64,000 bases of DNA, taken from the NCBI GenBank assembly GCA_964400015.1, contig CAYNRR010000008.1:644-64643 (forward strand), written 5' to 3'. The notes beneath the pieces were generated by a model that saw only the letters and a program-made list of their open reading frames with translations, made no database searches and was not told the origin of the DNA. Both the position numbers and the translations under genes were made by a program. Position 1 is the first letter of the stretch; each line of letters opens with the position of its first letter. Source of the DNA: an uncultured Eubacteriales bacterium (GTDB taxonomy: Bacteria > Bacillota > Clostridia > TANB77 > UBA1234). This document shows positions 46,058-63,249 of the stretch, one piece after another.

Positions 46058-49000
46058 ATGAGAAAACAAAAAGGTATTTCTATGGTTTCGTTAGTTATAA
46101 CAATCGTAGTCTTATTCATATTGCTTGGAATAGGTTTTTCGTATTCCAATAATTCAATAAAACAAGCTGGTAGAGGAGTGTTTGTCAGAGAACTTTCACT
46201 TGTTCAACAAGCAGCTAACGAAAAGAAATTAGATAACCAGATTGAAGGTAGTTCAGAAGAAATAAAGTTTAAAGGCTTTTATAAAACGAAAATAAAAAAT
46301 CCTCCTGTAAGTTTTGCGAGCTTTAGTGAAGATGAAATCTATGGATATGTAATAGACCTAGAATACGTTCATACAGAAGATGCAGACAGAGGACATGATT
46401 ACAAACGTTTTGCTAAAGACATAGAAAATAACGTTGTCGAATTCGGAAAAGACGATGTATATGTATGCGATAAAGACGGAAATGTATTTTATGCAAAAGG
46501 TTATCAAACGGATGAAGGAACATACTATTCAAAAAATGAAATAGAAGGACTAGGACCAGAATTCGTATCGATAGATAAAATAATATCATCAGATGCAAAG
46601 AGTGCAATAATAAGAGTCGTAGTAAAGAAAAGCAATAGTGGAGATCTAAGCTTAAAAGTAGACGATGAAGATGCAACAAAAATAGGAACATCAGATGATG
46701 GCACGATGGATACATTTGAAAAAGAAGTGTTTGAAAACAAAACATACAAACTAACAGCAGCAGAAGAAAAAGATGGAACAATAGGAAAAACAACATCATC
46801 AGTAGAAGTAACAGAACTAGACGTAATCACATACGTAATGAAATACGATGCAAACGGTGGAACAGATGCACCAGCATCACACTTGAAAACAGAAAATATA
46901 ATAGCAAGATTATCAACGCAAATTCCAAATAGAGATGGCTACACATTTTTAGGATGGAACGAAAATCCATCAGCAACAATAGCAACATACAAACCAGGTG
47001 GTGAGTATGTATTCGATAGAGACATAACATTCTTCGCAGTATGGAAAGAAGGAAAAGTAAGAACATACAATGTAACATATAATGCAAATGGTGGTACAAA
47101 TGGACCACTATCACAAGAAAACTTAAGTGGAGATTATACAATATCAAACATAACTCCAACTAGAGATGGATATGGCTTCTTAGGTTGGAACGAAGATTCA
47201 AGAGCAACAACAGCCACATACAATCCAGGCGACACAATCACACTTACAAAAAATTTAGCATTATATGCAATATGGGCAAAAGGAACATACACAGTAACAC
47301 TATCAACAAATCCAGAAGGAGCAGGAACAGTAACAGGTAGCACGGCAAAAGTAGATGGAGTTGAAACATACATATCAACAATAGCAAATCCAGGATACAT
47401 ATTTAAAAATTGGACAGTAAAATCAGGAAGCATAAACTTAAAAAATTCAGCATCAACAACAACATCATTCATAATGCCAAAAGAAAATGTAGAAATAGTA
47501 GCAAATTATGAAGTTGGAGATTTAACAGTAAAATACAATGCTAATAAAGGAAAAGGTGCACCATCAGAAGAATCAGCAAAATACGGCGACACAATAATAA
47601 TAAGTCCTAAAATTCCAACAAGGGCAGGATATGACTTCGTAGGTTGGTCATTAAAACAAACAGCAACAGAAGGAACATACTTTGCAGGACAAACATATAC
47701 AGTAAAAGAAAACGTAACATTTTATGCAATATGGAAAGAAAACATTCCAACATACACATTAACATTCAACTTGAATGGTGGATATGGAAACAAAGCAGGA
47801 GAAATAGGAAAATTTGCATCAATAACAAAAGTAAAAGGTGGAAAAATAACAATCCCAGTAGGTGGTGCAGACGAACCATATAGAAAAGATTATGTATTCA
47901 AAGGCTGGGCATTAAATCCAGACTCAAAAGAAGTAGTTTTAAATCCAGGAGACATATATTCAAAAGATGCAGACATAGAAATATATGCAGTATGGAAAGA
48001 TGAAACACCACCAACATTAGTATTAACACCAAAACAAGAAGAAGGTTCAAGCGAAGTAAAAATTATAGCAACAGCACATGACGAAGGAAGCCTTGCTGGA
48101 TATGCTTGGACAAAAACAAACGTAGAACCAACAATATGGGAAACAGAAGAAATAAAAGGAACAGACCTAACAGTAGAAAAAACAATAAAAGAAAAAGGAG
48201 AACACTACTTTTGGGTAAAAGACACAGCAGGAAACGTAGTATCAGAATCAATAAAAGCATACGAAATAAAATATGATGCAAACGGTGGAACAAATGCACC
48301 AGAAACACAATATCAACTAGAAAACGTAGACTTAAGGTTATCAACACAAAAACCAAAATTAGAACAATATACATTCTTAGGATGGTCAACATCAGCAGCA
48401 CCAGGCAATACAGAAAGTGACGTAAACTTTAAAAGTGGAGCAATATTAAATATAAACTCAGACATCACACTAAAAGCAGTATGGGGTGAAGCAGGCTTCA
48501 AGCTAAGCACGAAAAATGTGACAACACAAATAGATGGACCAAGTGTAACAGTAACAGTAACAAAAAGTTCATACACAGGAAACATAACAGTATCAAGTGC
48601 AGACACAGAAAAAGCTACAGCAACAATAAAAGACAACACAATAACAATAACACCAGGAACAAAAATCGGTGATGTAGAAATAACAGTAACAGAAGATGCA
48701 GAAGGAACAACAGAAAAAATACTAGTAATAGTAAATAGAGGAATAAGAAAAATAACATTAGACAAAACAGAAACAGAATTCACATATGGAGACTCAAGTG
48801 AAAAAATAGGATTCACATATAACGGAAAATCAACAACATTATCAACACAAACAAGCAACTCAGAAGTTGCAACAGCAACAGCAACAGACAAAACACTTAC
48901 AATAAAACCAAAAAATACAGGAACAGCAACAATAACATTAGTGTTAGCTCAAGACGATCAATACTTAGAACAAACAGCAAAAGTAGAAGTAACAATAACA

Positions 49001-52000
49001 AAGAGAAAAATAATAGTTACACCAGACGCAAATCAAAACAAAGAATATGACGGAACAGCGTTAACACCAACAATAACATACACATACACAGGCAACAAAG
49101 GAAGCGAAACACCAAAATTCACAGGAGAACTAGCAAGAGAAATAGGAAGTGAAATAGGGGAATATGTAATAACAATAGGAACATTAGCATTAGCAGACAA
49201 CGGAGACTTCAAAGCATCAAACTACACATTAGAACTATCAACAACAAAAATATATTTCACAATAACAGCAAAAAAAATAGCAGTACCATCAGCAATAACA
49301 CCACAAGAATATGATGGAACAACAAAATACGGTGTAGCAGAAGGCGAATACTATATAAGAGGTGGAGAATATCAAAAAATAAATGCAGGCAAATACACAG
49401 CAACAGTAACACTAAAAGACATCAAAAACTATGTATGGGAAGACACAAACACAACAACAGCCAAAAACATAAAATGGGAAATCACCAGATATAATCTATC
49501 AAATGCAGATATTACCGTAGAAACAATACCAAATAAAGAATACACAGGAACTGAAATAACACCAATTCCAGTAGTAAAAAAAGGCGAAACAACATTAGAA
49601 AACGGAAACGATTATACATTAACATACAAAAACAACGTAAATGTAGGAACAGCAACAATAACAATAGAAGGAAAAGGCAACTATGAAGGAACATTAACAA
49701 CAACATTTGAAATAACATCAGCAACAATGCAAGTAGACGCATCAGGATATACAGGAATGTATGACAATGCAAATCACTCAATAAAAGTAACACCAATATG
49801 GCCAACAGCAGGATACACAATATACTACTCAACAATAGAACTAACGCAAGCAAACTACAAAACAGACGGAACAACAACAAATCCAACATACAAAGATGTA
49901 GGAACAACAACAGTGTACTACTACATAGTAGCGTCAAACTTCAAAGACTACACAGGAAACGAAACAATAAAAATAACATCAAAAGATATATCAGGAAACT
50001 TAACAATATCAGGAATCGTAGACAAAACATATACAGGTAGTCAAATAACACAAACAATAACAGTAAAAGATAATGATCAAAATAGAAACCTAGAAGAAGG
50101 AAAAGAATACACAGTAACATATAAAGACAACATAAAAGTAGGAACAGCAACAATAACAATAGAAGGAAAAGGCAACTACGCAGGAACAATAACAAAAACA
50201 TTCAAAATACTAGGAGACACAATCACAATAGCAAAAGACACAGAAGCAGTAGTAGAAAAGCTAGAAATAACAATAACAAGAACACTAACACCAGGAAAAC
50301 TACAATACAAAATAAACAATGGAGAATGGAAAGACTACAGAGGACCATTTGAAATAACAGAAGACTGTACAATTTATGCACGTTCAATAGATGGAGAAAA
50401 CATACTAGGAACAAACGAACTACAAATAACAAACATATGTGAGCACGAATACACAGAAGTAACATGTACAGAAGACTCAGTATGTAAATATTGTGGAAAA
50501 CTAAACAAAGAAAAACTAGGACATGACTTCACATCAAAAACACCAACAGTAGCATATCAATGCACAGCAACAACATGTACAGAAAAAGCAACATACTACT
50601 ACAAATGTACAAGATGTACAGAAAAAGGAACAGAAACATATGAATATGGCGAAGCACTAGGCCATGACTTCACATCAAAAACAGCAACAGCAACATATCT
50701 ATGTACACCAGCAACATGTACAGAAAAAGCGACATACTACTACAAATGTACAAGATGTGCCGCAAAAGGGACAGAAACATACGAATACGGAGAACCAGAC
50801 GGCCACGACTTCACTTCAAAAACACAAACACAAGAATACTGGAAATCAGACGCAACATGTACAGTAGCAACAACATACTACTACAAATGTACAAAATGTG
50901 AAGCAAAAGGAACAGCAACATACACAGTAGGAAGTCCACTAGGACATGACTTCACAGAAAAAATAATAAACGACACATACATCTGCACAACAGCAACATG
51001 TACAAAACCAGCAACATACTATTACAAATGTTCAAGATGTAACGAAAAAAGCACAGAAACATATGAATACGGTGAACCACTAGGACATAGTTATGGAGAA
51101 TATGTAGAAAAACAAGCTGCAACATGTGTAACAGAAGGAATAGAAGAAGCAACATGTATAAGATGTGGAACCACAACAACAAGAACAACAGCAACAAATC
51201 CAGAAAACCACGAAGGCACAATACAAGAAATAGAAATAACAGCCGCAACATGTACAACAACAGGAAGAAAGAAATACGTATGCTCAGCATGTAACGGTAT
51301 AATAAGATACGAAACAATAGCAGCACTAGGCCACGACTGGGATGCAGAAGAGCCACCAAGAGAATGTAGAAGATGTGGCTTAAGAGAAGAATACGTAGCA
51401 CAAGCAATCTACTGCGAATCAGACGGCTCATTAACATTTATAAAGAGTTTAACAGAATACCAAGCAGGCGATACATATGATGGAAAAATAGTAACAGTAG
51501 TGTATAAGGGGTTTGAGACAGAGGAATATTCGAGTGGAACAGCTGTACCTTGGTATGAAAATAGAGAAAAAATCACAAGTGTTAGAGTAACAGATAGTAT
51601 CGAACCAATAAGTACAGCATATTGGTTTAAAAATTTTGAAAATTGTGGATCGTTCGATTTAGGAAAGCTTATTACAGACAATGTAATAGATATGAAATAT
51701 ATGTTTAGTCGAGCAGGATATAATGCAGAAAGAGTAGAAATTGCTGGACCACGTTCATGGGATACATCAAAAGTAACAGATATGAGTTTCATGTTTGAAT
51801 ATACAGCATGTACTTCTGAGATATTTACTCTAGACTATTTAGATAATTTAGATGTTTCTAGTGTAACCAATATGCAAGGTATGTTTAATACTACAGCTAT
51901 TAGCACTACAACATGGAGTATAGGTAACTTAAGTAATTGGAATGTATCGAACGTAATAGATATGTCAAGCATGTTTGCATGTGCAGGATATTATTCTACA

Positions 52001-55000
52001 GTATGGAGCGTTGGTGACTTGAGTGATTGGAACGTATCGAATGTGATAAATATGAGTGGTATGTTTGATTGTGCAGGTTATAATACAAAATTATTTAAGA
52101 TTGGAGACATAGGCAAATGGGATGTGCTAAACGTAACTAATATGTCGAATATGTTTCATTGTGCAGGACATAATGCATCTGAATTATGGAGTATAGGAGA
52201 TTTAAGCAACTGGGATGTATCCAATGTAACTAACATGAAAGAATTGTTTATGGCAGCAGGTTTTCTAGCTACTAATTGGGACATAGGAGATTTAAGCAAC
52301 TGGGACGTATCGAGTGTAACTAATATGGACTCAATGTTTACATACATAGGTGGTAAATCGAGAGATTTAGATATAGGAAAACTAAATAACTGGAATGTTT
52401 CAAATGTAACTAATATGCATGGAATGTTTTGTTATGCTGGTAGTGAAAAAGCCCTTACATTTGATATAGGAAATTTAGATGCCTGGAATGTCTCAAACGT
52501 AACAGATATGAGTTTGATGTTTGCTGGTGCTGGAAACAGTGCACAAAAATGGAATATAGGAGATTTAGGTGCATGGAATACATCGAAGGTTGCAGATATG
52601 CGACAAATGTTCTATGTGTGTAGAAATCTAAAAGAACTAAACTTAAGTGGATGGGATACAAGCAATGTAACAACAATGGAAGAAATGTTCTATGGATGTT
52701 ATAAATTAGAAGAGATTAGCTTAGGCAAAAATTTCAAATTTGTTGGAACAAACGGTTACTTACCAGCCCCAAGTAGCACACACATCACAGGAGCAAACGG
52801 CTTATGGTACAACAAAGCAACAGGAATTGGCTATGCACCGGAAGATATACCAAATAACACAGCAGCAACGTATACAGCATTTCCACCGAAAACAGCACAA
52901 GCAATCTACTGCGAATCAGACGGTTCATTAACATTTATAAAAGATACGCCGTATACGGTTGGTGGAACGTATAATGGAAAAACAATAACAGCAGTGTATA
53001 CAGGATTTGAAACAGAGGAATATTTTACAGATACAGATATACCTTGGTACGAAAACAGAAACAACATTACAAGTGTTGTATTTAAAGATAAAATAACTCC
53101 TCTTAGAACAGCATATTGGTTCTATAAGTTTGAAAATTGTGCAAATTTTGATGTAACTAATTTAGATACTTCTAATGTTAGTTCGATGACTTATATGTTT
53201 GGATTAGCAGGTTTTGAATCAAGTAGTACAACATTTAAAATTATTGGAATGGATAGTTGGAATACAAGTAATGTACAGAGTATGTATAGAATGTTTAGAT
53301 ATGCTGGCACCAAAGCCATAACATTTGATATAGGTGATTTGAGTAACTGGGATACTTCCTTAGTACATGATATGAGCGGTATGTTTTATAGTACAGCAGA
53401 TAGAGCGACAACGTTTGACATTGGTGATATAGGTAAATGGGATGTATCAAATGTATGGGAAATGGACAGTATGTTTAATAATACTGCTGGTGAATGTCAA
53501 ACGTTTAATATAGGCGATTTAAGTAATTGGAATGTATCAAAAGTAACTACTATGTCAAACATGTTTAGTAATATTGGTGGTTTTTATTGTACAACATTTG
53601 ATATTGGTGATATAGGTAAATGGAATGTATCAAGCGTAACAGACATGTCATATATGTTCTATTCTGTTATATGTAATAAAGGTACAACGTTTAATATAGG
53701 CGATTTAAGTAATTGGAATGTGTCAAATGTAACAGATATGTCATATATGTTTGCGGTTTGTGCTAATAATAAAGCATCTAAATTTAATATAGGCGATTTA
53801 AGTAATTGGGATGTATCAAACGTAACTAATATGGCGGGAATGTTTTCTTATTTAGGTGCTAGTGCCACAACGTTGAGTATAGGAGACTTAAGTAATTGGA
53901 AAGTATCAAATGTAACGAATATGCATGGTATGTTTGAATCAGCAGGTCAGAATGCTGCAACATTTAACATTGGTAATATAGGCAAATGGGATGTATCAAA
54001 AGTTACAGATATGTATGGTATGTTTGATTCTACAGCTAATAGTGCCACAACATTTAATATAGGAGACTTAAGTAACTGGAATGTGTCAAACGTGACAGAT
54101 ATGGGAAGGATGTTTACTGCTGTTGCAGAAAATGTGACTGAACTTAATATAGGAGATTTAGGATCTTGGAATACTTCAAAAGTAACCAATATGTCAGAGA
54201 TGTTCAGAGGATGTACTAAATTAAAAACACTAAACCTAAGTGGATGGGACACAAGCAATGTAACCAAAATGTCAAATATGTTCTATCATTGTTATAACTT
54301 ACAAGAAGTTACACTAGGTAAAAAATTCAGCTTTGTAGGAACAGATGGCTACTTACCAGTACCAAGTGGTACATATATTACAGATGCAACTGGTCTATGG
54401 TACAACAAGGCAACGAAAGTTGGTTATGCACCAGAAGATATACCAAATAAGACAGCAGCAACATACGTAGCATATCCTGTAAAAACAGCGCAAGCAATCT
54501 ACTGTTCATCAGATAATTCATTAACATTTGTAAATAGTACAACACTATATTCAGTAGGTGGTAAATATAGCAATAAAACAATAACAGCAGTATACACAGG
54601 GTTTGAAGATGAAGAATATTCATGGAACAATAATGTACCTTGGTATAACTACAGAGAAAGTATAAAGAGTGTTACAGTAAAAGATACAATAACACCAAAA
54701 AGTACAGCATACTGGTTTGAAGAATTCAAAAACTGTAGTACGTTTACTGTAACAAATTTAGACGTATCCAAAGTAAAAAATATGACAAGCATGTTCAGTA
54801 ATGCAGGTTTAAAATCTACATCATACAAAATAACTGGAATGAATAACTGGGACGTATCAAATGTAACAGATATGAGTTATATGTTTGCATATTCACAATC
54901 TTGGTCAGCTGATGGAGGTCCACAATGGACATCATTTAATATAGGTGACTTAAGTAAATGGAATACAAGCAAAGTTACAGATATGTCAAATATGTTTACA

Positions 55001-58000
55001 GCATTTGGATCAAAAGTTAAAACTTTAAATCTAAGCACTATCAAATTTAACAGTTGGGATGTATCAAATGTAACAGATATGAGCAGTATGTTTTATAGTA
55101 CAGGTTACAATTCTACAAGTTTCACATTAGACATAAGCGGATGGGACACATCAAATGTAACAAATATGACCATGATGTTTGATGAAACTGCGTATAGTGC
55201 AACAACAATAAACATTACTGGTTTAAATACATTAAACACATCAAAAGTAACTTCGATGACGGCTATGTTTAATAAATTCGGATACAAAATAAAATCTCTA
55301 ACCATAGGAGATTTAAGTGGTTGGGATGTATCAAATGTAACAAGTATGTATAATATGTTTGCATCTGCAGGATATACAGCAACAACATTTAAAATAGTAG
55401 GATTAGATAACTGGGACGTATCAAAAGTTGAGACTATGGCTGGAATGCTCCAAACTGCAGGCTATAGTGCAACAACATGGAATATAGGAAACTTAAGTAA
55501 TTGGAATGTATCAAAAGTTACTAAATTTGGTGATTTATTAAATGATTTAGTAATTGATGGAGACACAATAACTTATACAGGTACAGGAATGTTTGCATTT
55601 GCAGGATACAATGCCACGGCATGGGATGTAGGCGATTTAAGTAGCTGGGATGTATCAAATGCAGACGATATGGCAGGAATGTTCTGTAGTGCAGCTAATA
55701 AAGCTACAACATTTAACATAGGAGATATTGGAGGATGGAATACAGCAAAAGTCACAGATATGAGAGCAATGTTCGCAACAGCAGGAAAAAATGCAACAAC
55801 ATGGAATATAGGTGATTTAGGAGCATGGAAAACATCAAACGTAACAAACCTTTCACACATGTTCTGGGGTTGTGATAAGATAAAAGAACTAAACCTAAGT
55901 GGATGGGATACAAGTAGAGTAACAGCAATGTCAAACATATTTGCTGGTTGCTATAACTTACAAGAAGTTTCATTAGGCAAAAACTTCAAATTCGTTGGAA
56001 CAGATGGCTATTTACCAGTGCCAAGTAATACATATATTACAGACGCAAACGGCTTATGGTATAACAAAGCAACAGGAATAGGTTATGCACCATCTGCTAT
56101 ACCAAACAACACAGCAGCAACATATACAGCAGTTGCGCCAAAAGTAATAAGAGCAATCTATTGCGAATCAGACGGTTCGTTAACATTCATAAATCAATCA
56201 ACACTATATTCAGTAGGCGATACATATGATGGAAAAACAATAACAGCAATATATACAGGATTTGAAAATGTTGAATACGCATGGAACAAAAATCCGGTTT
56301 GGTATGCTAATAGAGAAAACATAAAGAGTGTTGTAGTAAAAGACACAATAACACCAATAAGTACAGCATATTGGTTCTATGAATTCAAAAATTGTAGTAC
56401 ATTTGATGTAACAAATTTAGATGTATCAAATACAACAACAATGTCAAGAATGTTCTGGGATGCAGCTGTAAATTGTACATCATATACTATAACAGGAATG
56501 AATAATTGGGATGTAAGTAATGTAACGAACATGAGTCATTTATTTGGCTACACACCAACTTATGTAGACGGAGGTCCACAATGGACAAAATTCAGTTTTG
56601 GTAGTTTAAGCAAATGGAACACAAGCAAAGTAACAGATATGTCAAATATGTTTTTTACTTTTGGAAGTAAACTTACAACTTTCGATTTAAGTTCTATTGG
56701 AATTAACAGTTGGGATGTATCAAATGTAACCGACATGAGTAGTATGTTTTATGAAGCAGGATATTATTCTACAACATTTAAACTAGATATAAGCAACTGG
56801 AAAACATCAAGTGTTACAGACATGAGTATGATGTTTTTTGGTGCAGCGTATAGTGCAACAAGCATGACTCTAAAAGGAATAAATACATTAGATACATCAA
56901 AAGTAACTTCAATGTCCACGATGTTTGCTGATTTTGGATACAGCATCAAATCTTGGACTATAGGAAATTTAAGTAATTGGGATGTGTCAAATGTAACAAG
57001 TATGTACAGAATGTTTGATAATGCAGGACATACTGCAACAACATTTAAATTAGAAGGATTAAATAATTGGAATGTATCAAATGTAGTAACTATGTATAAG
57101 ATGTTTTATGATACAGGACTTAATGCTACAACGTGGAGTATAGGAGATTTAACAAACTGGAACGTATCGAATGTAACAGATATGGAAGATATGTTTTATC
57201 TAGCAGGCGCTACTGCCAAAACATTTAACATAGGTAATTTAGATAATTGGAATGTATCAAAAGTAACAAATATGTCTGGAATGTTTCATGCTGCAGGTAC
57301 AAGTGCTACCACATGGAATATAGGTGACTTAAGTAATTGGGATGTATCAAAAGTAACTAACTTTGGTAAGTCTTGGAAAAGTCCAGTGATAGATGGAAAT
57401 AAAATAACTGTTTATGCAACTGGGATGTTTTTAAACGCTGGATACAAAGCAACCACATGGAATATAGGTGACTTAAGTAATTGGGATGTATCGAGTGCAG
57501 AAAGCATGTCATCAATGTTCTTTGGAGCAGGTTATAGTGCGACAACATTCAATATAGGAGACATTGGAGGATGGAATACATCTAAAGTAACAGATATGAG
57601 CACTATGTTTGCAGTTGCAGGTGAAAATGCTACCACATGGAATATAGGCGATTTAGGAGCGTGGAGAACATCAAATGTAACAAACCTTTCAAGTATGTTT
57701 TGGGGTTGTAATGAAATAAAAGAACTAAATTTAAGTGGATGGGACACAAGTAGTGTAACAACAATGTCAAACATGTTTGATGGTTGCGTAAAACTAGAAG
57801 AAGTTTCATTAGGCAAAAACTTCAAATTTGTAGGAACAGACGGCTACTTGCCAGAACAAAGTAGTACATATATTACAGGAGCAAATGGCTTCTGGTATAA
57901 CAAATCAACAAAAGTAGGATATGCACCAGCATACATACCAAACAACACAGCAGCAACATACGTAGCATATCCACCAAAAACAGCACAAGCAATCTACTGT

Positions 58001-59629
58001 GCATCAGACGGATCACTAACATTTATAAATCAATCAACATTGTACGCAGCAGGAAGTACATACAATGGAAAGACAGTAACAGCAGTGTATACAGGATTTG
58101 ATACTGATATATATTGGTCATATAGTCAACTTCCTTGGTATGATTATGTAGAAGCTATAAAAAGTGTAGTAGTAAGTGATGAAATAAAACCAATATCTAC
58201 TGCACGTTGGTTCCAAGGTATGGAAAATTGCAAAAAGTTCGATTTAACTAAACTTAATACATCACAAGTAAAATATATGCATTATATGTTCAAATATGCT
58301 GCATATCAGCCAACAAGCATTACATTAACTGGTTTAGATAGTTGGGATACTTCAAATGTTACTATGATGTATAGTATGTTTGAGTACTTTGGAAATAAAG
58401 TAAAAACATTAAATTTAGATTTAAGTAATTGGGACACATCAAAGATTACAGATATGGAGCGAATGTTTGACGGAACTGGAGCTAGTTCTACCACTTTGAC
58501 AATTACTCTTAGTAATTGGGATACATCAAATGTAAAATATATGAAAGAGATGTTTAGCTGTGCGGGTTGCAATGCGACGACAGTAAAAATTCTTGGGCTT
58601 ACTAATTGGGATGTATCAAATGTTGAAGAAATGAAATGGATGTTTAAACAAACTGGTGAAAGTGCCACAACATTCAAAATAGAAAGTCTTACTAATTGGA
58701 AAACATCAAAAGTTGTGGATATGGAAAATATGTTAGGCGATGCGGGTATGTCGGCAACAACATGGAGTATAGGAGATTTAAGTAATTGGGATGTATCAAA
58801 TGTTGAAAATATGCATTGGTTGTTTTCTTTTGCAGGAAGAAGTTGTACAAGTTGGAGCATAGGAGACTTAAGTAATTGGGATGTATCAAATGTAACTAAT
58901 ATGAGTCGAATGTTCCAATACGCAGGTGAAAGTGCTAAATCATGGAGCATAGGAGACTTAAGTGATTGGGATGTATCAAATGTAGAAAACATGGATGGTA
59001 TGTTTGAATACGCTGGATATTCATCAACTACATTTAAATTGGTAGGTTTAGATAGTTGGGATGTATCAAATGTAACAGATATGTCTAGTATGTTTGATAG
59101 TACAGGATATAAAGCTACAACATGGAGTATAGGCAATTTAAGTAATTGGGACGTATCGAATGTAACAGATATGAGTGGTATGTTTAGTCACGCTGGTTAT
59201 ACAACAACAAACTGGAGTATAGGAGATTTAAGTAACTGGAATGTATCAAATGTAATAAGCTTTGGATATGCATGGGATGAGCCAGAAGTTAGTGGAAGCA
59301 CAATATCATTCTATGGTGTAGGAATGTTCTTAAATGCGGGAGCTAAAGGCAAAACATTTAATATAGGCGACTTAAGTGGCTGGAACGTATCAAAAGCCGA
59401 AGAAATGGCAGGAATGTTCTTTGGAGCAGGAAGTAGTGCAACAACATTTAAGATAGGAAACATCAGTAGTTGGAACACATCAAAAGTAACAGACATGCGA
59501 GCAATGTTTGCATGCACCGGAACAAAAGCATCATACAAATTAAACTTATCCGGCTGGAATGTAAGCAACGTTGAATATTCAACATACTTCAATTGGGGTT
59601 CAACCTCAAAAGTCACCTCCCCATTCTAG
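46058..59629 (+). CDS. Giant (4523 aa) repeat-rich cell-surface protein, paralog B. Prepilin-like N-terminus, conserved N-domain, Listeria-Bacteroides (Flg_new) repeats, MBG/Ig-like repeats, 5x Cys-rich repeats, and six BspA/DUF285-type super-repeats.
   Basis: One ORF with an AAGGAGGT SD. Flg_new repeats (DGYTFLGWNENPSATIATYKPG...FFAVW). MBG-like (GTATITIEGKGNYEGT). 26-aa repeats (NWDVSNVTDMSSMFxxAG). The minus-strand ORFs listed inside are antisense artefacts. Confidence 0.9.
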   Translation: MRKQKGISMVSLVITIVVLFILLGIGFSYSNNSIKQAGRGVFVRELSLVQQAANEKKLDNQIEGSSEEIKFKGFYKTKIKNPPVSFASFSEDEIYGYVIDLEYVHTEDADRGHDYKRFAKDIENNVVEFGKDDVYVCDKDGNVFYAKGYQTDEGTYYSKNEIEGLGPEFVSIDKIISSDAKSAIIRVVVKKSNSGDLSLKVDDEDATKIGTSDDGTMDTFEKEVFENKTYKLTAAEEKDGTIGKTTSSVEVTELDVITYVMKYDANGGTDAPASHLKTENIIARLSTQIPNRDGYTFLGWNENPSATIATYKPGGEYVFDRDITFFAVWKEGKVRTYNVTYNANGGTNGPLSQENLSGDYTISNITPTRDGYGFLGWNEDSRATTATYNPGDTITLTKNLALYAIWAKGTYTVTLSTNPEGAGTVTGSTAKVDGVETYISTIANPGYIFKNWTVKSGSINLKNSASTTTSFIMPKENVEIVANYEVGDLTVKYNANKGKGAPSEESAKYGDTIIISPKIPTRAGYDFVGWSLKQTATEGTYFAGQTYTVKENVTFYAIWKENIPTYTLTFNLNGGYGNKAGEIGKFASITKVKGGKITIPVGGADEPYRKDYVFKGWALNPDSKEVVLNPGDIYSKDADIEIYAVWKDETPPTLVLTPKQEEGSSEVKIIATAHDEGSLAGYAWTKTNVEPTIWETEEIKGTDLTVEKTIKEKGEHYFWVKDTAGNVVSESIKAYEIKYDANGGTNAPETQYQLENVDLRLSTQKPKLEQYTFLGWSTSAAPGNTESDVNFKSGAILNINSDITLKAVWGEAGFKLSTKNVTTQIDGPSVTVTVTKSSYTGNITVSSADTEKATATIKDNTITITPGTKIGDVEITVTEDAEGTTEKILVIVNRGIRKITLDKTETEFTYGDSSEKIGFTYNGKSTTLSTQTSNSEVATATATDKTLTIKPKNTGTATITLVLAQDDQYLEQTAKVEVTITKRKIIVTPDANQNKEYDGTALTPTITYTYTGNKGSETPKFTGELAREIGSEIGEYVITIGTLALADNGDFKASNYTLELSTTKIYFTITAKKIAVPSAITPQEYDGTTKYGVAEGEYYIRGGEYQKINAGKYTATVTLKDIKNYVWEDTNTTTAKNIKWEITRYNLSNADITVETIPNKEYTGTEITPIPVVKKGETTLENGNDYTLTYKNNVNVGTATITIEGKGNYEGTLTTTFEITSATMQVDASGYTGMYDNANHSIKVTPIWPTAGYTIYYSTIELTQANYKTDGTTTNPTYKDVGTTTVYYYIVASNFKDYTGNETIKITSKDISGNLTISGIVDKTYTGSQITQTITVKDNDQNRNLEEGKEYTVTYKDNIKVGTATITIEGKGNYAGTITKTFKILGDTITIAKDTEAVVEKLEITITRTLTPGKLQYKINNGEWKDYRGPFEITEDCTIYARSIDGENILGTNELQITNICEHEYTEVTCTEDSVCKYCGKLNKEKLGHDFTSKTPTVAYQCTATTCTEKATYYYKCTRCTEKGTETYEYGEALGHDFTSKTATATYLCTPATCTEKATYYYKCTRCAAKGTETYEYGEPDGHDFTSKTQTQEYWKSDATCTVATTYYYKCTKCEAKGTATYTVGSPLGHDFTEKIINDTYICTTATCTKPATYYYKCSRCNEKSTETYEYGEPLGHSYGEYVEKQAATCVTEGIEEATCIRCGTTTTRTTATNPENHEGTIQEIEITAATCTTTGRKKYVCSACNGIIRYETIAALGHDWDAEEPPRECRRCGLREEYVAQAIYCESDGSLTFIKSLTEYQAGDTYDGKIVTVVYKGFETEEYSSGTAVPWYENREKITSVRVTDSIEPISTAYWFKNFENCGSFDLGKLITDNVIDMKYMFSRAGYNAERVEIAGPRSWDTSKVTDMSFMFEYTACTSEIFTLDYLDNLDVSSVTNMQGMFNTTAISTTTWSIGNLSNWNVSNVIDMSSMFACAGYYSTVWSVGDLSDWNVSNVINMSGMFDCAGYNTKLFKIGDIGKWDVLNVTNMSNMFHCAGHNASELWSIGDLSNWDVSNVTNMKELFMAAGFLATNWDIGDLSNWDVSSVTNMDSMFTYIGGKSRDLDIGKLNNWNVSNVTNMHGMFCYAGSEKALTFDIGNLDAWNVSNVTDMSLMFAGAGNSAQKWNIGDLGAWNTSKVADMRQMFYVCRNLKELNLSGWDTSNVTTMEEMFYGCYKLEEISLGKNFKFVGTNGYLPAPSSTHITGANGLWYNKATGIGYAPEDIPNNTAATYTAFPPKTAQAIYCESDGSLTFIKDTPYTVGGTYNGKTITAVYTGFETEEYFTDTDIPWYENRNNITSVVFKDKITPLRTAYWFYKFENCANFDVTNLDTSNVSSMTYMFGLAGFESSSTTFKIIGMDSWNTSNVQSMYRMFRYAGTKAITFDIGDLSNWDTSLVHDMSGMFYSTADRATTFDIGDIGKWDVSNVWEMDSMFNNTAGECQTFNIGDLSNWNVSKVTTMSNMFSNIGGFYCTTFDIGDIGKWNVSSVTDMSYMFYSVICNKGTTFNIGDLSNWNVSNVTDMSYMFAVCANNKASKFNIGDLSNWDVSNVTNMAGMFSYLGASATTLSIGDLSNWKVSNVTNMHGMFESAGQNAATFNIGNIGKWDVSKVTDMYGMFDSTANSATTFNIGDLSNWNVSNVTDMGRMFTAVAENVTELNIGDLGSWNTSKVTNMSEMFRGCTKLKTLNLSGWDTSNVTKMSNMFYHCYNLQEVTLGKKFSFVGTDGYLPVPSGTYITDATGLWYNKATKVGYAPEDIPNKTAATYVAYPVKTAQAIYCSSDNSLTFVNSTTLYSVGGKYSNKTITAVYTGFEDEEYSWNNNVPWYNYRESIKSVTVKDTITPKSTAYWFEEFKNCSTFTVTNLDVSKVKNMTSMFSNAGLKSTSYKITGMNNWDVSNVTDMSYMFAYSQSWSADGGPQWTSFNIGDLSKWNTSKVTDMSNMFTAFGSKVKTLNLSTIKFNSWDVSNVTDMSSMFYSTGYNSTSFTLDISGWDTSNVTNMTMMFDETAYSATTINITGLNTLNTSKVTSMTAMFNKFGYKIKSLTIGDLSGWDVSNVTSMYNMFASAGYTATTFKIVGLDNWDVSKVETMAGMLQTAGYSATTWNIGNLSNWNVSKVTKFGDLLNDLVIDGDTITYTGTGMFAFAGYNATAWDVGDLSSWDVSNADDMAGMFCSAANKATTFNIGDIGGWNTAKVTDMRAMFATAGKNATTWNIGDLGAWKTSNVTNLSHMFWGCDKIKELNLSGWDTSRVTAMSNIFAGCYNLQEVSLGKNFKFVGTDGYLPVPSNTYITDANGLWYNKATGIGYAPSAIPNNTAATYTAVAPKVIRAIYCESDGSLTFINQSTLYSVGDTYDGKTITAIYTGFENVEYAWNKNPVWYANRENIKSVVVKDTITPISTAYWFYEFKNCSTFDVTNLDVSNTTTMSRMFWDAAVNCTSYTITGMNNWDVSNVTNMSHLFGYTPTYVDGGPQWTKFSFGSLSKWNTSKVTDMSNMFFTFGSKLTTFDLSSIGINSWDVSNVTDMSSMFYEAGYYSTTFKLDISNWKTSSVTDMSMMFFGAAYSATSMTLKGINTLDTSKVTSMSTMFADFGYSIKSWTIGNLSNWDVSNVTSMYRMFDNAGHTATTFKLEGLNNWNVSNVVTMYKMFYDTGLNATTWSIGDLTNWNVSNVTDMEDMFYLAGATAKTFNIGNLDNWNVSKVTNMSGMFHAAGTSATTWNIGDLSNWDVSKVTNFGKSWKSPVIDGNKITVYATGMFLNAGYKATTWNIGDLSNWDVSSAESMSSMFFGAGYSATTFNIGDIGGWNTSKVTDMSTMFAVAGENATTWNIGDLGAWRTSNVTNLSSMFWGCNEIKELNLSGWDTSSVTTMSNMFDGCVKLEEVSLGKNFKFVGTDGYLPEQSSTYITGANGFWYNKSTKVGYAPAYIPNNTAATYVAYPPKTAQAIYCASDGSLTFINQSTLYAAGSTYNGKTVTAVYTGFDTDIYWSYSQLPWYDYVEAIKSVVVSDEIKPISTARWFQGMENCKKFDLTKLNTSQVKYMHYMFKYAAYQPTSITLTGLDSWDTSNVTMMYSMFEYFGNKVKTLNLDLSNWDTSKITDMERMFDGTGASSTTLTITLSNWDTSNVKYMKEMFSCAGCNATTVKILGLTNWDVSNVEEMKWMFKQTGESATTFKIESLTNWKTSKVVDMENMLGDAGMSATTWSIGDLSNWDVSNVENMHWLFSFAGRSCTSWSIGDLSNWDVSNVTNMSRMFQYAGESAKSWSIGDLSDWDVSNVENMDGMFEYAGYSSTTFKLVGLDSWDVSNVTDMSSMFDSTGYKATTWSIGNLSNWDVSNVTDMSGMFSHAGYTTTNWSIGDLSNWNVSNVISFGYAWDEPEVSGSTISFYGVGMFLNAGAKGKTFNIGDLSGWNVSKAEEMAGMFFGAGSSATTFKIGNISSWNTSKVTDMRAMFACTGTKASYKLNLSGWNVSNVEYSTYFNWGSTSKVTSPF
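50438..51390 (+). repeat. Tandem Cys-rich module inside the giant gene: five copies of an about 46-aa repeat (LGHDFTSKT..Y.CT.ATCTEKATYYYKCTRC..KGTETYEYGE), then CxxC/zinc-ribbon-like units.
   Basis: Read directly from the translation. A paralogous module lies in gene A at about 5350-6180 (minus strand). Confidence 0.8.
51398..59629 (+). repeat. Six super-repeats of about 1.5-1.8 kb (about 500-600 aa each). Each runs AQAIYCESDGSLTF...PWYENR...STAYWF..F.NC, then tandem 26-aa DUF285/BspA repeats, then LNLSGWDTSNVT...LGKNFKFVGTDGYLP...GLWYNKAT.GYAP..IPN.TAATY.
   Basis: Module starts near 51398, 52896, 54489, 56150 and 57984, with high DNA identity at the boundaries. Confidence 0.85.
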
Positions 59630-60147
59630 AGGGACGTCCGTTAAATGTGTCACCAATCTTTTAAATGCTTGCAGTGAAAGAAAAAGGCGAAAAATAAATA
59701 GCAAAAAAGTGAGACACTTTAGCAGTGAGAAAAAGTTATTTGTAACGAGAAAAATTATTTTAATTGACAAGTATCAAAAAACAATTTAATATAAAGTCGG
59801 TTGAAGAAAATGTACTGAATAAAAAATGGACAGTATAAAAACTTTAGCCGACTTTATTTTTATACGAAAATTGCATAATAAAGTTTCAACCACAAAACGC
59901 AATAAACTAATTTTCGTATAAAACCAATTCTAATTCGCAAAATTCTTTGCGAAAATTTCCAAATTTTAAAATTCAAATATAAAAAGGACTGATGCCTATG
60001 CACACGTAAGGCTTTTTGCGTATAATTCAATATTAGAACGTAGTATAAATGGTGGCAAAATTAAATTATTTCACTATTATACTGCTTTATTTTCATACTC
60101 AAAATTTGCAAAATCCCCCACAAAAACCATTTAAGAAAGGAACACAC

Positions 60148-61062
60148 ATGATACTAAAAGAAGAAATATTAAGCAAGATCACGCCTAAAAATGACGTTAT
60201 CTTTAAAAAGATTTTCGGAGCGAGAGGAAACGAAGGAATCTTAAAAAGCTTCCTTGAAAGCATATTAGACATAGAAATTGAATCACTAGTAGTAGACTTA
60301 GGGACCGAACTATTGCCAGACTTCTACGACGGCAAACTCTCAAGACTAGATGTAAGAGCAACTTTAAATGACGGCACAATTGTAAACATTGAAGTGCAAA
60401 CAAATATGCATGACTACACTGATAAAAGAAGTCTAGCATATTGGAGCAAAGTTTATTTGGAACAATTCAAGCAAGGACAAAACTATAAGAATGCCAATAA
60501 AACAATTTGCATATGGATACTAGACGGGCAAGTATACGACTTTCCGGAATACCATTCAAAATGGAAAGTTGCTGAAGTAACAAACGGCCAAACAAAATAC
60601 TTTGATGACTTTGAAATACACGTAATAGAGTTGCAAAAATTCAGGAAACTAGATATAATTGAACCGAAGAAAAAAGAATTTTGGCTATGGTTCATCGACC
60701 ATACCAAAAAGGAGATGGTCGAGATGTCAAGTTATACACTAGAAGAAATAAAGAAAGCCAAAGCAGAATACGAAAAAATGATAGCCGAAGAACCAGAACT
60801 ACAACATTTCCTAATGCGTGAAGAATTCGCAGCAATGGATAGAGCACAAGAACTAAGCGATGCAAGAGAGAAAGGTATAAAAGAAGGCAAAGAGGAAGGT
60901 TTAAAAGAAGGACTAGAAGCTGGCAAAAAAGAAGGCTTGCAAGTTGGCAAAAAAGAAGAAAAACTAGAAACAGCTAAGAAAATGCTGGAAAAAGGTATTG
61001 ACATAAAAACAATCGCAGAGATAACAGGCCTTACCGAAGAAGAGATTAGGGACGTCCGTTAA
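60148..61062 (+). CDS. Rpn-family recombination-promoting nuclease/putative transposase (PDDEXK_7, YhgA-like), copy 1.
   Basis: NDVIFKKIFG, RLDVRA...VNIEVQ (PD-(D/E)xK core), C-terminal EKG/KEG low-complexity region. Start aligned to copy 2 (GAAAGGAACACAC ATG); the table's 60049 start is an extension. Confidence 0.75.
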   Translation: MILKEEILSKITPKNDVIFKKIFGARGNEGILKSFLESILDIEIESLVVDLGTELLPDFYDGKLSRLDVRATLNDGTIVNIEVQTNMHDYTDKRSLAYWSKVYLEQFKQGQNYKNANKTICIWILDGQVYDFPEYHSKWKVAEVTNGQTKYFDDFEIHVIELQKFRKLDIIEPKKKEFWLWFIDHTKKEMVEMSSYTLEEIKKAKAEYEKMIAEEPELQHFLMREEFAAMDRAQELSDAREKGIKEGKEEGLKEGLEAGKKEGLQVGKKEEKLETAKKMLEKGIDIKTIAEITGLTEEEIRDVR

Positions 61063-61469
61063 ATGTGTCACGAATCTTTCTAATGCTTGCAATGAAAGAA
61101 AAAGATGAAAAATAAACTGCGAAAAAGTGAGACACTTTAGCAATTAGAAAAATTATTTTAATTGACAAGTATCAAAAAACAATTTAATATAAAGTCGGTT
61201 GAAGAAAATGTACTGAATAAAAAATGGACAGTATAAAAACTTTAGCCGACTTTATTTTTTATACGAAAATTGCGTACCAAAGTTTAACCACAAAATGCAC
61301 AAAATTTTTTCGTATAAACCTAATTCTAATTCGCAAAATCCTTTGCGAAGATTTTCCTAATTTTAAAATTTAAAAATAAAAAGGACTGATGCCTATGCAC
61401 ACGTAAGGCTTTATTTTCATACTCAAAATTCGCAAAATCCCCAAAAAACTATTTAAGAAAGGAAAACAC

Positions 61470-62348
61470 ATGACATTAAAAGAGGAAATATTAAGCAAGA
61501 TCACACCTAAAAATGACGTTATATTCAAGAAAATATTCGGAGCGAGAGGAAATGAAGGAATCTTAAAAAGCTTCCTTGAAAGCATACTAGATATTGAAAT
61601 CGAATCGCTAGTAGTAGACTTAGGGACCGAACTATTGCCAGACTTCTACGACGGTAAACTCTCAAGATTAGATGTAAGAGCAACTTTAAACAATGGCACA
61701 ATTGTAAACATCGAAGTGCAAACAAATATGCACGACTATACCGATAAAAGAAGCTTAGCATACTGGAGCAAAGTCTACTTAGAACAATTCAAACAAGGAC
61801 AAAACTACAAGAATGCCAATAAAACAATTTGCATATGGATACTAGACGGACAAGTATACGACTTTCCGGAATACCATTCAAAATGGAAAGTTGCTGAAGT
61901 AACAAACGGCCAAACAAAATACTTTGATGACTTTGAAATACACGTAATAGAGTTGCAAAAATTCAGGAAACTAGATATAATTGAGCCAAAGAAAAAAGAA
62001 TTTTGGCTATGGTTTATCGACCATACCAAAAAGGAGATGGTCGAGATGTCAAGTTACACACTAGAAGAAATAAAGAAAGCCAAGGCAGAATATGAAAAAA
62101 TGATAGCCGAAGAACCAGAACTACAACACTTCCTAATGCGTGAAGAATTCGCAGCAATGGACAGAGCACAAGAACTAAGCGATGCAAGAGAGAAAGGACT
62201 AGAGGAAGGTAAAAAAGAAGGAATAGCAACTGGCAGAAAAGAAGAAAAACTAGAAACAGCCAAGAAAATGCTAGAAAAAGGCATCGACATAAAAACAATC
62301 TCAGAAGTAACAGGTCTTACCGAAGAAGAGATTAGGGACGTCCGTTAA
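61470..62348 (+). CDS. Rpn-family recombination-promoting nuclease/putative transposase, copy 2 (about 95% identical to copy 1, with a shorter EKG tract).
   Basis: Same motifs. Antisense ORFs at 61525-62298 are artefacts. Confidence 0.75.
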   Translation: MTLKEEILSKITPKNDVIFKKIFGARGNEGILKSFLESILDIEIESLVVDLGTELLPDFYDGKLSRLDVRATLNNGTIVNIEVQTNMHDYTDKRSLAYWSKVYLEQFKQGQNYKNANKTICIWILDGQVYDFPEYHSKWKVAEVTNGQTKYFDDFEIHVIELQKFRKLDIIEPKKKEFWLWFIDHTKKEMVEMSSYTLEEIKKAKAEYEKMIAEEPELQHFLMREEFAAMDRAQELSDAREKGLEEGKKEGIATGRKEEKLETAKKMLEKGIDIKTISEVTGLTEEEIRDVR

Positions 62349-62520
62349 ATGTATCGTGAACATTGCAAACGCTTGCAGCAGAAGGAATAGAAAAAGCAGA
62401 AAATAAATCAAATCACACAAATGAAAAAGCCAGAAGAAATAAAAAATCGAAAAACAATTAAATCACACAAATACATAAACCTCTTTTTATTTCATATATT
62501 GAAATAAGGGAGGTTTCTTT

Positions 62521-63249
62521 ATGCTTATAATTACTAAAAAAGACATATTGTTTTATTTGCTTACATTGTTGTGCTTTTTCTTTGTGTTAACCATGCCACT
62601 TAATTTAAAAGAAAACCAAAAAAGCCAAACTATATCCCAAAATATTCAAAATCAAAAAGAAATAAAAATTGTAATTGACGCAGGACATGGAGAACCAGAT
62701 GGCGGAGCAGTTTCTGCAAGTGGAATAAAAGAAAGTGAATTGAATTTGCAGATCGCTCAAAAATTAAAAAACAAATTGGAAGAAATAGAAAACGTAAAAG
62801 TTATCATGACGAGAGAAGACGAAAATAATATTGCATCAAATTCAAATGAGCAAATGACGATAAAACAATTGAAAACAAATGATTTAAACAATCGAGTAAA
62901 GATTGCAAACGAAAGTGGAGCAGTAATAATGGTTTCGATACATATGAACAAATTTGAAAATCCTAAATATAGAGGTTGGCAAACTTTTTATTCAAAAACT
63001 TCTGAAGAAGGCAAAAAACTAGCCGAAGAAATTCAATCTTCAATAGGTGAAAGTATAAACATAGAAAACAATCGAACAGCTTTAAAAATTGAAGGAATAA
63101 AAATAATCGACAAAACTCAAATTCCAACAGTGATAGTCGAATGTGGATTTTTGTCAAATGTAGAAGAATGTCAATTATTGCAGGACGAAGAGTATCAGGA
63201 AAAAATGGCAGAAGGCATAAAAAATGGCATACAAAAGTATTTGTTTTGA
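62521..63249 (+). CDS. cwlD: N-acetylmuramoyl-L-alanine amidase (Amidase_3, CwlD-like), membrane-anchored.
   Basis: IVIDAGHGEPDGGAVSASG...ESGAVIMVSIHMN motifs. N-terminal TM. AAGGGAGGT SD. Confidence 0.75.
   Translation: MLIITKKDILFYLLTLLCFFFVLTMPLNLKENQKSQTISQNIQNQKEIKIVIDAGHGEPDGGAVSASGIKESELNLQIAQKLKNKLEEIENVKVIMTREDENNIASNSNEQMTIKQLKTNDLNNRVKIANESGAVIMVSIHMNKFENPKYRGWQTFYSKTSEEGKKLAEEIQSSIGESINIENNRTALKIEGIKIIDKTQIPTVIVECGFLSNVEECQLLQDEEYQEKMAEGIKNGIQKYLF

What the first reader, a model, noticed from the sequence alone, without database searches (positions are those of the whole stretch)
59600..62360. Tandem Rpn-nuclease cassettes whose repeat boundary is also the 3' end of the giant gene
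The 24-nt sequence AGGGACGTCCGTTAAATGTGTCAC ends the giant gene (...PF*, stop TAG overlapping it). It also ends each Rpn gene (...EEEIRDVR*), at 59626, 61048 and 62334. The sequence after each copy is homologous for about 100 bp. So the giant gene's terminus has been replaced or recombined at the cassette boundary, and the [leader + Rpn] unit has been duplicated in tandem. Rpn/YhgA PD-(D/E)xK proteins promote RecA-independent recombination, so this is a candidate hotspot: 3'-end shuffling among giant-gene paralogs, cassette amplification, or a genuinely mobile Rpn element with a defined target/junction sequence. Each leader carries a consensus promoter followed by about 380 nt of hairpin-rich 5'UTR (for example TTCGCAAA-N4-TTTGCGAA at 59935).
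Basis: seen in the sequence. Interest (0 to 1): 0.68.

Follow-up and report, generated by a model that had tools for sequence, protein, structure and literature searches.

The report
Tandem rpn genes bounded by hairpin repeat
Two adjacent copies of an Rpn toxin/defence nuclease gene arose by an old tandem duplication, and the shared 24-base boundary is a copy of a small hairpin repeat scattered through related gut and rumen bacteria, so the locus is mostly ordinary and the repeat family is the new part.

Summary
The 24-mer lies at 59630, directly after the giant gene's TAG rather than overlapping it. It recurs exactly at 61048, and at 62334 with 3 mismatches. Two [leader + rpn] units (1418 and 1286 nt, 90-94% identical) lie in tandem.

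Both genes are intact Rpn-family nucleases. They differ by 38 synonymous and 2 non-synonymous codons, and by three 4-amino-acid repeats, which published work on Rpn links to toxin/antitoxin specificity. Tandem rpn arrays are already described.

The boundary is not specific to Rpn. Its core, GGGACGTCCRTTAAAWGT, occurs in 87 metagenome stretches (80 fetched). Most copies belong to a conserved stem-loop repeat found as singlets, inverted doublets and tandem copies. None of the 80 fetched loci encodes an Rpn. At least seven functionally unrelated genes (transketolase, acyltransferase, thioredoxin-like and others) end in the same ...GDVH*/GDVR* tail.

Single-copy relatives (L124, L027) carry such hairpins on both sides of the cassette. 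I therefore favour duplication through a short homology of at most 21 nt between flanking repeat copies.

The giant gene shows no sign of truncation. The roughly 310-385 nt leader is real and conserved in ten sequences from nine loci. A mobile Rpn element with its own junction sequence is not supported.

The parts
46058..59629 (+). Giant surface-protein gene (4523 aa, DUF285 repeats). This is context. Its TAG stop directly abuts the first repeat copy.
   Evidence: ORF list. Pfam PF03382, E=2.6e-91, on the last 542 aa. The C-terminus aligns with the L020 homologue nearly to the end.
59630..59653 (+). E copy 1: the 24-mer, which is the core plus 3' arm of a dispersed hairpin repeat. The 5' stem arm is missing.
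   Evidence: The HMM built from 79 metagenome copies hits here with E=7e-05.
59630..59763 (+). E plus its A-rich flank upstream of the promoter. It is 90% identical to 61048-61161, with a 20-nt indel at 59724-59743. It contains a CTTGCA block that is also seen upstream of the rpn leaders in L001 and L028.
59764..59792 (+). Promoter of rpn1 (TTGACA-17-TAATAT).
   Evidence: The hexamers and their spacing are conserved in all ten leader sequences while the spacer sequence varies.
59793..59855 (+). Hairpin 1. It looks like an intrinsic terminator (stem plus T-run) and starts right after the -10 box.
   Evidence: Folds at -18 to -24 kcal/mol, with covarying stems, in 8 of the 9 aligned leaders. Inverted repeat I1.
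59858..59923 (+). Hairpin 1b, with perfect 15-nt arms. Among the aligned leaders it occurs only in the window and, with a different sequence, in L027.
   Evidence: Inverted repeat I12. Folds.
59934..59953 (+). Hairpin 2: TTCGCAAA-ATTC-TTTGCGAA, followed by a T-rich stretch.
   Evidence: RNAalifold gives 8 pairs, 3 of them with compensatory changes, across 9 leaders.
59992..60009 (+). Mini-ORF ATG CCT ATG CAC ACG TAA (MPMHT*), with its own AAAGGA Shine-Dalgarno-like sequence.
   Evidence: An M-x-M-x(-x)-stop ORF sits at the same place in the window, L020, L023, L024, L027, L001, L002 and L124. Translation is inferred.
60011..60083 (+). 73-nt insertion found only in leader 1. It carries a promoter-like TGCACA-16-TATAAT (59999-60026).
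60148..61062 (+). rpn1 (304 aa): an Rpn-family PD-(D/E)XK nuclease with an HTH-like C-terminal domain.
   Evidence: PF12784, E=2.8e-45. TIGR01784, 147.6 bits. PF27070 HTH_Rpn_C, precomputed. PDB 7TH0 RpnA, E=0.019. D16, D68, E82 and Q84 are present.
60631..60726 (+). Candidate internal promoter (TTGCAA-17-TATAAT, 60631-60659), followed by AGGAG (60710-60714) and ATG (60724, Met193). Together these are a candidate start for the intragenic antitoxin RpnS.
   Evidence: The same elements are read in L001, L002, L003, L020 and L023. The analogy is to PMC10400941. Inferred, not shown.
60867..60946 (+). 12-nt (4-amino-acid) repeats of the type KEGx. rpn1 has three more units than rpn2 (36-nt indel at 60872-60907).
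   Evidence: Repeat family D3. Protein alignment.
61048..61071 (+). E copy 2, identical to copy 1. It supplies the last 5 codons (including the stop) of rpn1 and begins unit 2.
   Evidence: HMM E=1.1e-05.
61162..61469 (+). Leader 2: promoter 61162-61190, hairpin 1 at 61191-61253, hairpin 1b at about 61257-61321, hairpin 2 at 61330-61349, mini-ORF at 61389-61406, then the ribosome-binding site.
61470..62348 (+). rpn2 (292 aa). Its internal promoter-like site is at 61953-61981.
   Evidence: PF12784, E=2.3e-45. TIGR01784, 155.6 bits. Against rpn1 it shows 38 synonymous and 2 non-synonymous codon differences in 234 codons.
62334..62404 (+). E copy 3 (21 of 24 bases match) plus about 47 nt of decaying homology to the start of a unit. 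It supplies the rpn2 stop codon.
   Evidence: (family D2). HMM E=3.2e-05.
62521..63249 (+). Amidase_3 (CwlD-like) gene. This is context and marks the conserved right-hand neighbour.
   Evidence: PF01520, E=3.2e-48. The same neighbour follows a single-copy rpn in L002 and L027.

Best explanation
This is an old tandem direct duplication of one rpn cassette. The cassette consists of a promoter, a structured leader and an Rpn-family PD-(D/E)XK nuclease gene, which probably also encodes its own C-terminal antitoxin.

The cassette sits in a conserved slot between a giant surface-protein gene and a cwlD-like amidase gene. Before the duplication it was flanked on both sides by copies of a small dispersed hairpin repeat, here called E, with core GGGACGTCCRTTAAA. 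One copy lay directly after the giant gene's stop. The other overlapped the rpn stop, so rpn ends ...RDVR* inside it.

A short-homology exchange, or a template switch, within the at most 21 nt shared by the two E copies produced E-[leader-rpn]-E-[leader-rpn]-E. An exchange over so short a stretch was probably RecA-independent.

Both copies were then kept under purifying selection. They diverged by three 4-amino-acid repeats in the C-terminal helix. In characterised Rpn systems this repeat number decides which antitoxin neutralises which toxin, so the locus probably encodes two non-cross-reacting toxin/antitoxin defence modules.

Shown: the duplication, the boundaries, family membership, purifying selection, the repeat-number difference, the dispersed nature of E, and leader conservation.

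Inferred: that E flanked the cassette on both sides before the duplication, the join mechanism, RpnS expression, and the function of the leader parts. I read hairpin 1 as a terminator that insulates the cassette from read-through of the upstream gene, and the mini-ORF and hairpin 2 as elements that damp expression of a toxic gene.
For: - Boundaries and units. The units are 1418 and 1286 nt. Identity is 90% in the E-plus-flank segment, 94% from promoter to ribosome-binding site, and 93% in the coding sequence.
- Rpn membership. The residues matching RpnA D11/D63/E82/Q84 (PMC5350276) are read directly as D16/D68/E82/Q84.
- Selection: 38 synonymous against 2 non-synonymous codon differences. The indel equals three tetrads, and paralogue P0121 differs by one more tetrad.
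- Literature: rpn arrays arise by tandem direct duplication and lack terminal inverted repeats or target-site duplications. The 4-aa repeat number sets RpnS/RpnL specificity (PMC10400941).
- E is a dispersed repeat. There were 87 metagenome stretches; in the 80 fetched, most copies share stem arms and a downstream ATTATTGCAAC..TTATG block. Doublets and tandem copies also occur, and the stem covaries.
- E is dynamic: L043 and L057 differ by a 33-nt presence/absence between otherwise near-identical flanks.
- E is not tied to Rpn: no Rpn and no recurrent transposase-like ORF in 343 kb around E copies.
- At least seven functionally unrelated ORFs stop at the same TAA, giving ...GDVH*/GDVR* tails. 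One third of E copies have an ORF ending within 40 nt.
- Single-copy cassettes flanked by E-like hairpins: L124 (both sides, direct orientation) and the orthologous cwlD locus L027 (upstream and just after the stop).
- Join point: E(ii) matches E(i) at 24 of 24 positions. E(iii) differs only in the last 6 bases. There is no homology to the left of AGGGAC.
- The giant gene is not truncated.
Against: - All three window copies lack the 5' stem arm of the consensus element, and all end at the same base. This is expected if copies derive from one another, and less expected for two independently resident E copies.
- The third copy's tail is about 34% diverged over 47 nt. This is compatible with neutral decay since the same event (dS about 0.25). 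It could therefore be the stub of a third unit rather than an older flanking repeat.
- The downstream E in L027 is in the opposite orientation.
- Within the 64-kb window E occurs only at the rpn boundaries. Its dispersal in the source genome itself is therefore not shown.
- Intergenic regions next to rpn carry GGGAC..CC-type motifs more often than others (8 of 15 against 9 of 52, Fisher p=0.008). The loci are not independent. Correcting two misclassified regions by hand raises the contrast to 10 of 17 against 7 of 50, which leaves room for a real Rpn-E link.
Confidence: 0.68

Rival explanations
1. Collapsed longer array. The locus once held three or more tandem rpn units. The copy after the giant gene is what remains of an upstream unit, deleted up to its last 15 coding bases. 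Alternatively, or in addition, the copy after rpn2 is the stub of a further unit that was deleted. On this view E was never an independent flanking repeat here.
For: - All three copies share the same left end (AGGGAC) and lack the consensus 5' arm.
- The divergence of the third tail is compatible with neutral decay since the duplication (and my count on A1).
- The rpn copies match the element consensus for about 4 more bases to the left (ATTA against ACTA) than the giant-gene copy does. This is weak evidence.
Against: - It needs a deletion that ends exactly after the giant gene's stop codon.
- The single-copy orthologue L027 and the unrelated locus L124 already have E-like hairpins on both sides of one cassette.
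- E copies lie at or near many unrelated gene ends.
Confidence: 0.2
2. E-bounded mobile or site-specific rpn cassette. E would be the recombination site of a [leader-rpn] element, in the manner of attC or REP/RAYT. Rpn, or a host recombinase, would act on E to insert, excise and amplify the cassette, preferentially at gene 3' ends.
For: - E-like hairpins flank rpn cassettes of this leader family in several different genomic contexts: the window, L001, L024, L027, L124 and, with many copies, L003.
- rpn-flanking intergenic regions are enriched for the motif.
- The same leader-plus-rpn cassette is found in at least five different neighbourhoods.
- Overexpressed E. coli Rpn proteins raise RecA-independent recombination (PMC5350276).
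- The core GGACGTCC is a palindrome.
Against: - None of the 80 E-containing metagenome loci (343 kb) encodes an Rpn.
- Several rpn loci lack E on one or both sides: L020, L023, L002 downstream, and L116-L123.
- Paralogue P0121 of the same genome ends differently.
- Orientation and copy number of the flanking E copies vary.
- The two units here are 93% identical paralogues, not different cassettes.
- RpnA shows no sequence specificity in vitro (PMC5350276).
- The published survey found no defined ends and no evidence of autonomous transposition (PMC10400941).
- No empty or filled site pair was found.
Confidence: 0.09
3. 3'-end shuffling of giant genes. The cassette boundary would be a hotspot at which giant-gene paralogues exchange or lose their termini.
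For: - rpn genes of the closest subfamily lie next to very large genes in five contexts: the window, L001 (2749 aa or more), L020/L024, L023 and L028.
- The giant gene's TAG is in the same frame as the element's TAA.
Against: - The giant gene ends after a complete last DUF285 repeat, about where its L020 homologue ends.
- The neighbouring giant genes belong to different families and end differently.
- More distant rpn relatives are not next to giant genes.
- No second giant gene ending in E was seen.
Confidence: 0.03

Closest known systems
Rpn (YhgA-like) RpnL/RpnS toxin-antitoxin antiphage modules and their tandem arrays (Zhong et al. 2023, PMC10400941; Kingston et al. 2017, PMC5350276)
   Same: - PD-(D/E)XK N-terminal domain with the D...D...ExQ residues.
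- Variable C-terminal HTH-like domain containing 4-amino-acid (12-nt) repeats whose number differs between paralogues.
- Candidate internal promoter and start codon for a short C-terminal protein.
- Arrays made by tandem direct duplication, without terminal inverted repeats or target-site duplications.
   Different: - These genes belong to the PF12784/TIGR01784 branch in an uncultured Clostridia-type genome, not to the E. coli PF04754 proteins that were tested.
- A long conserved leader (terminator-like hairpin overlapping the transcription start region, a second hairpin, and a mini-ORF) has not, to my knowledge, been described for rpn genes.
- The duplication join point lies in a dispersed hairpin repeat.
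- Toxicity, RpnS expression and phage defence are untested here.
REP/BIME and REPIN elements of Proteobacteria (Bertels and Rainey 2011, PMC3116915; PMC3337134)
   Same: E is a short imperfect palindrome with a conserved core. It is mostly intergenic and often sits just after gene ends. It is present in several copies per contig and occurs as singlets and as inverted doublets with a spacer. It is polymorphic between near-identical strains.
   Different: - It is found in low-GC gut and rumen Firmicutes-type contigs.
- The conserved part is the loop (GGGGACGTCCATTAAA), while the stem varies.
- A second conserved block, ATTATTGCAAC..TTATG, follows many copies.
- No RAYT-like or other recurrent transposase gene was found in 343 kb around copies.
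- It often fuses to ORF 3' ends and supplies their stop codon.
Tandem duplications joined at short repeats or REP sequences in enterobacteria (Slack et al. 2006, PMC1428787; Kofoid et al. 2003, cited there)
   Same: The duplication join point falls in a short stretch of identity inside a dispersed palindromic repeat. That stretch is too short for efficient RecA-dependent exchange.
   Different: This event is ancient (about 6% nucleotide divergence) and both copies have been retained. It is not a transient amplification under selection.
Rickettsia palindromic elements and similar miniature repeats that insert into coding regions (from memory: Ogata et al. 2000)
   Same: E copies become part of ORFs. 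They form C-terminal tails (...GDVH*/GDVR*) and, in L079 and L090, an in-frame internal segment of a large housekeeping-type ORF.
   Different: The sequence family and the host group are different. Most E copies are intergenic.

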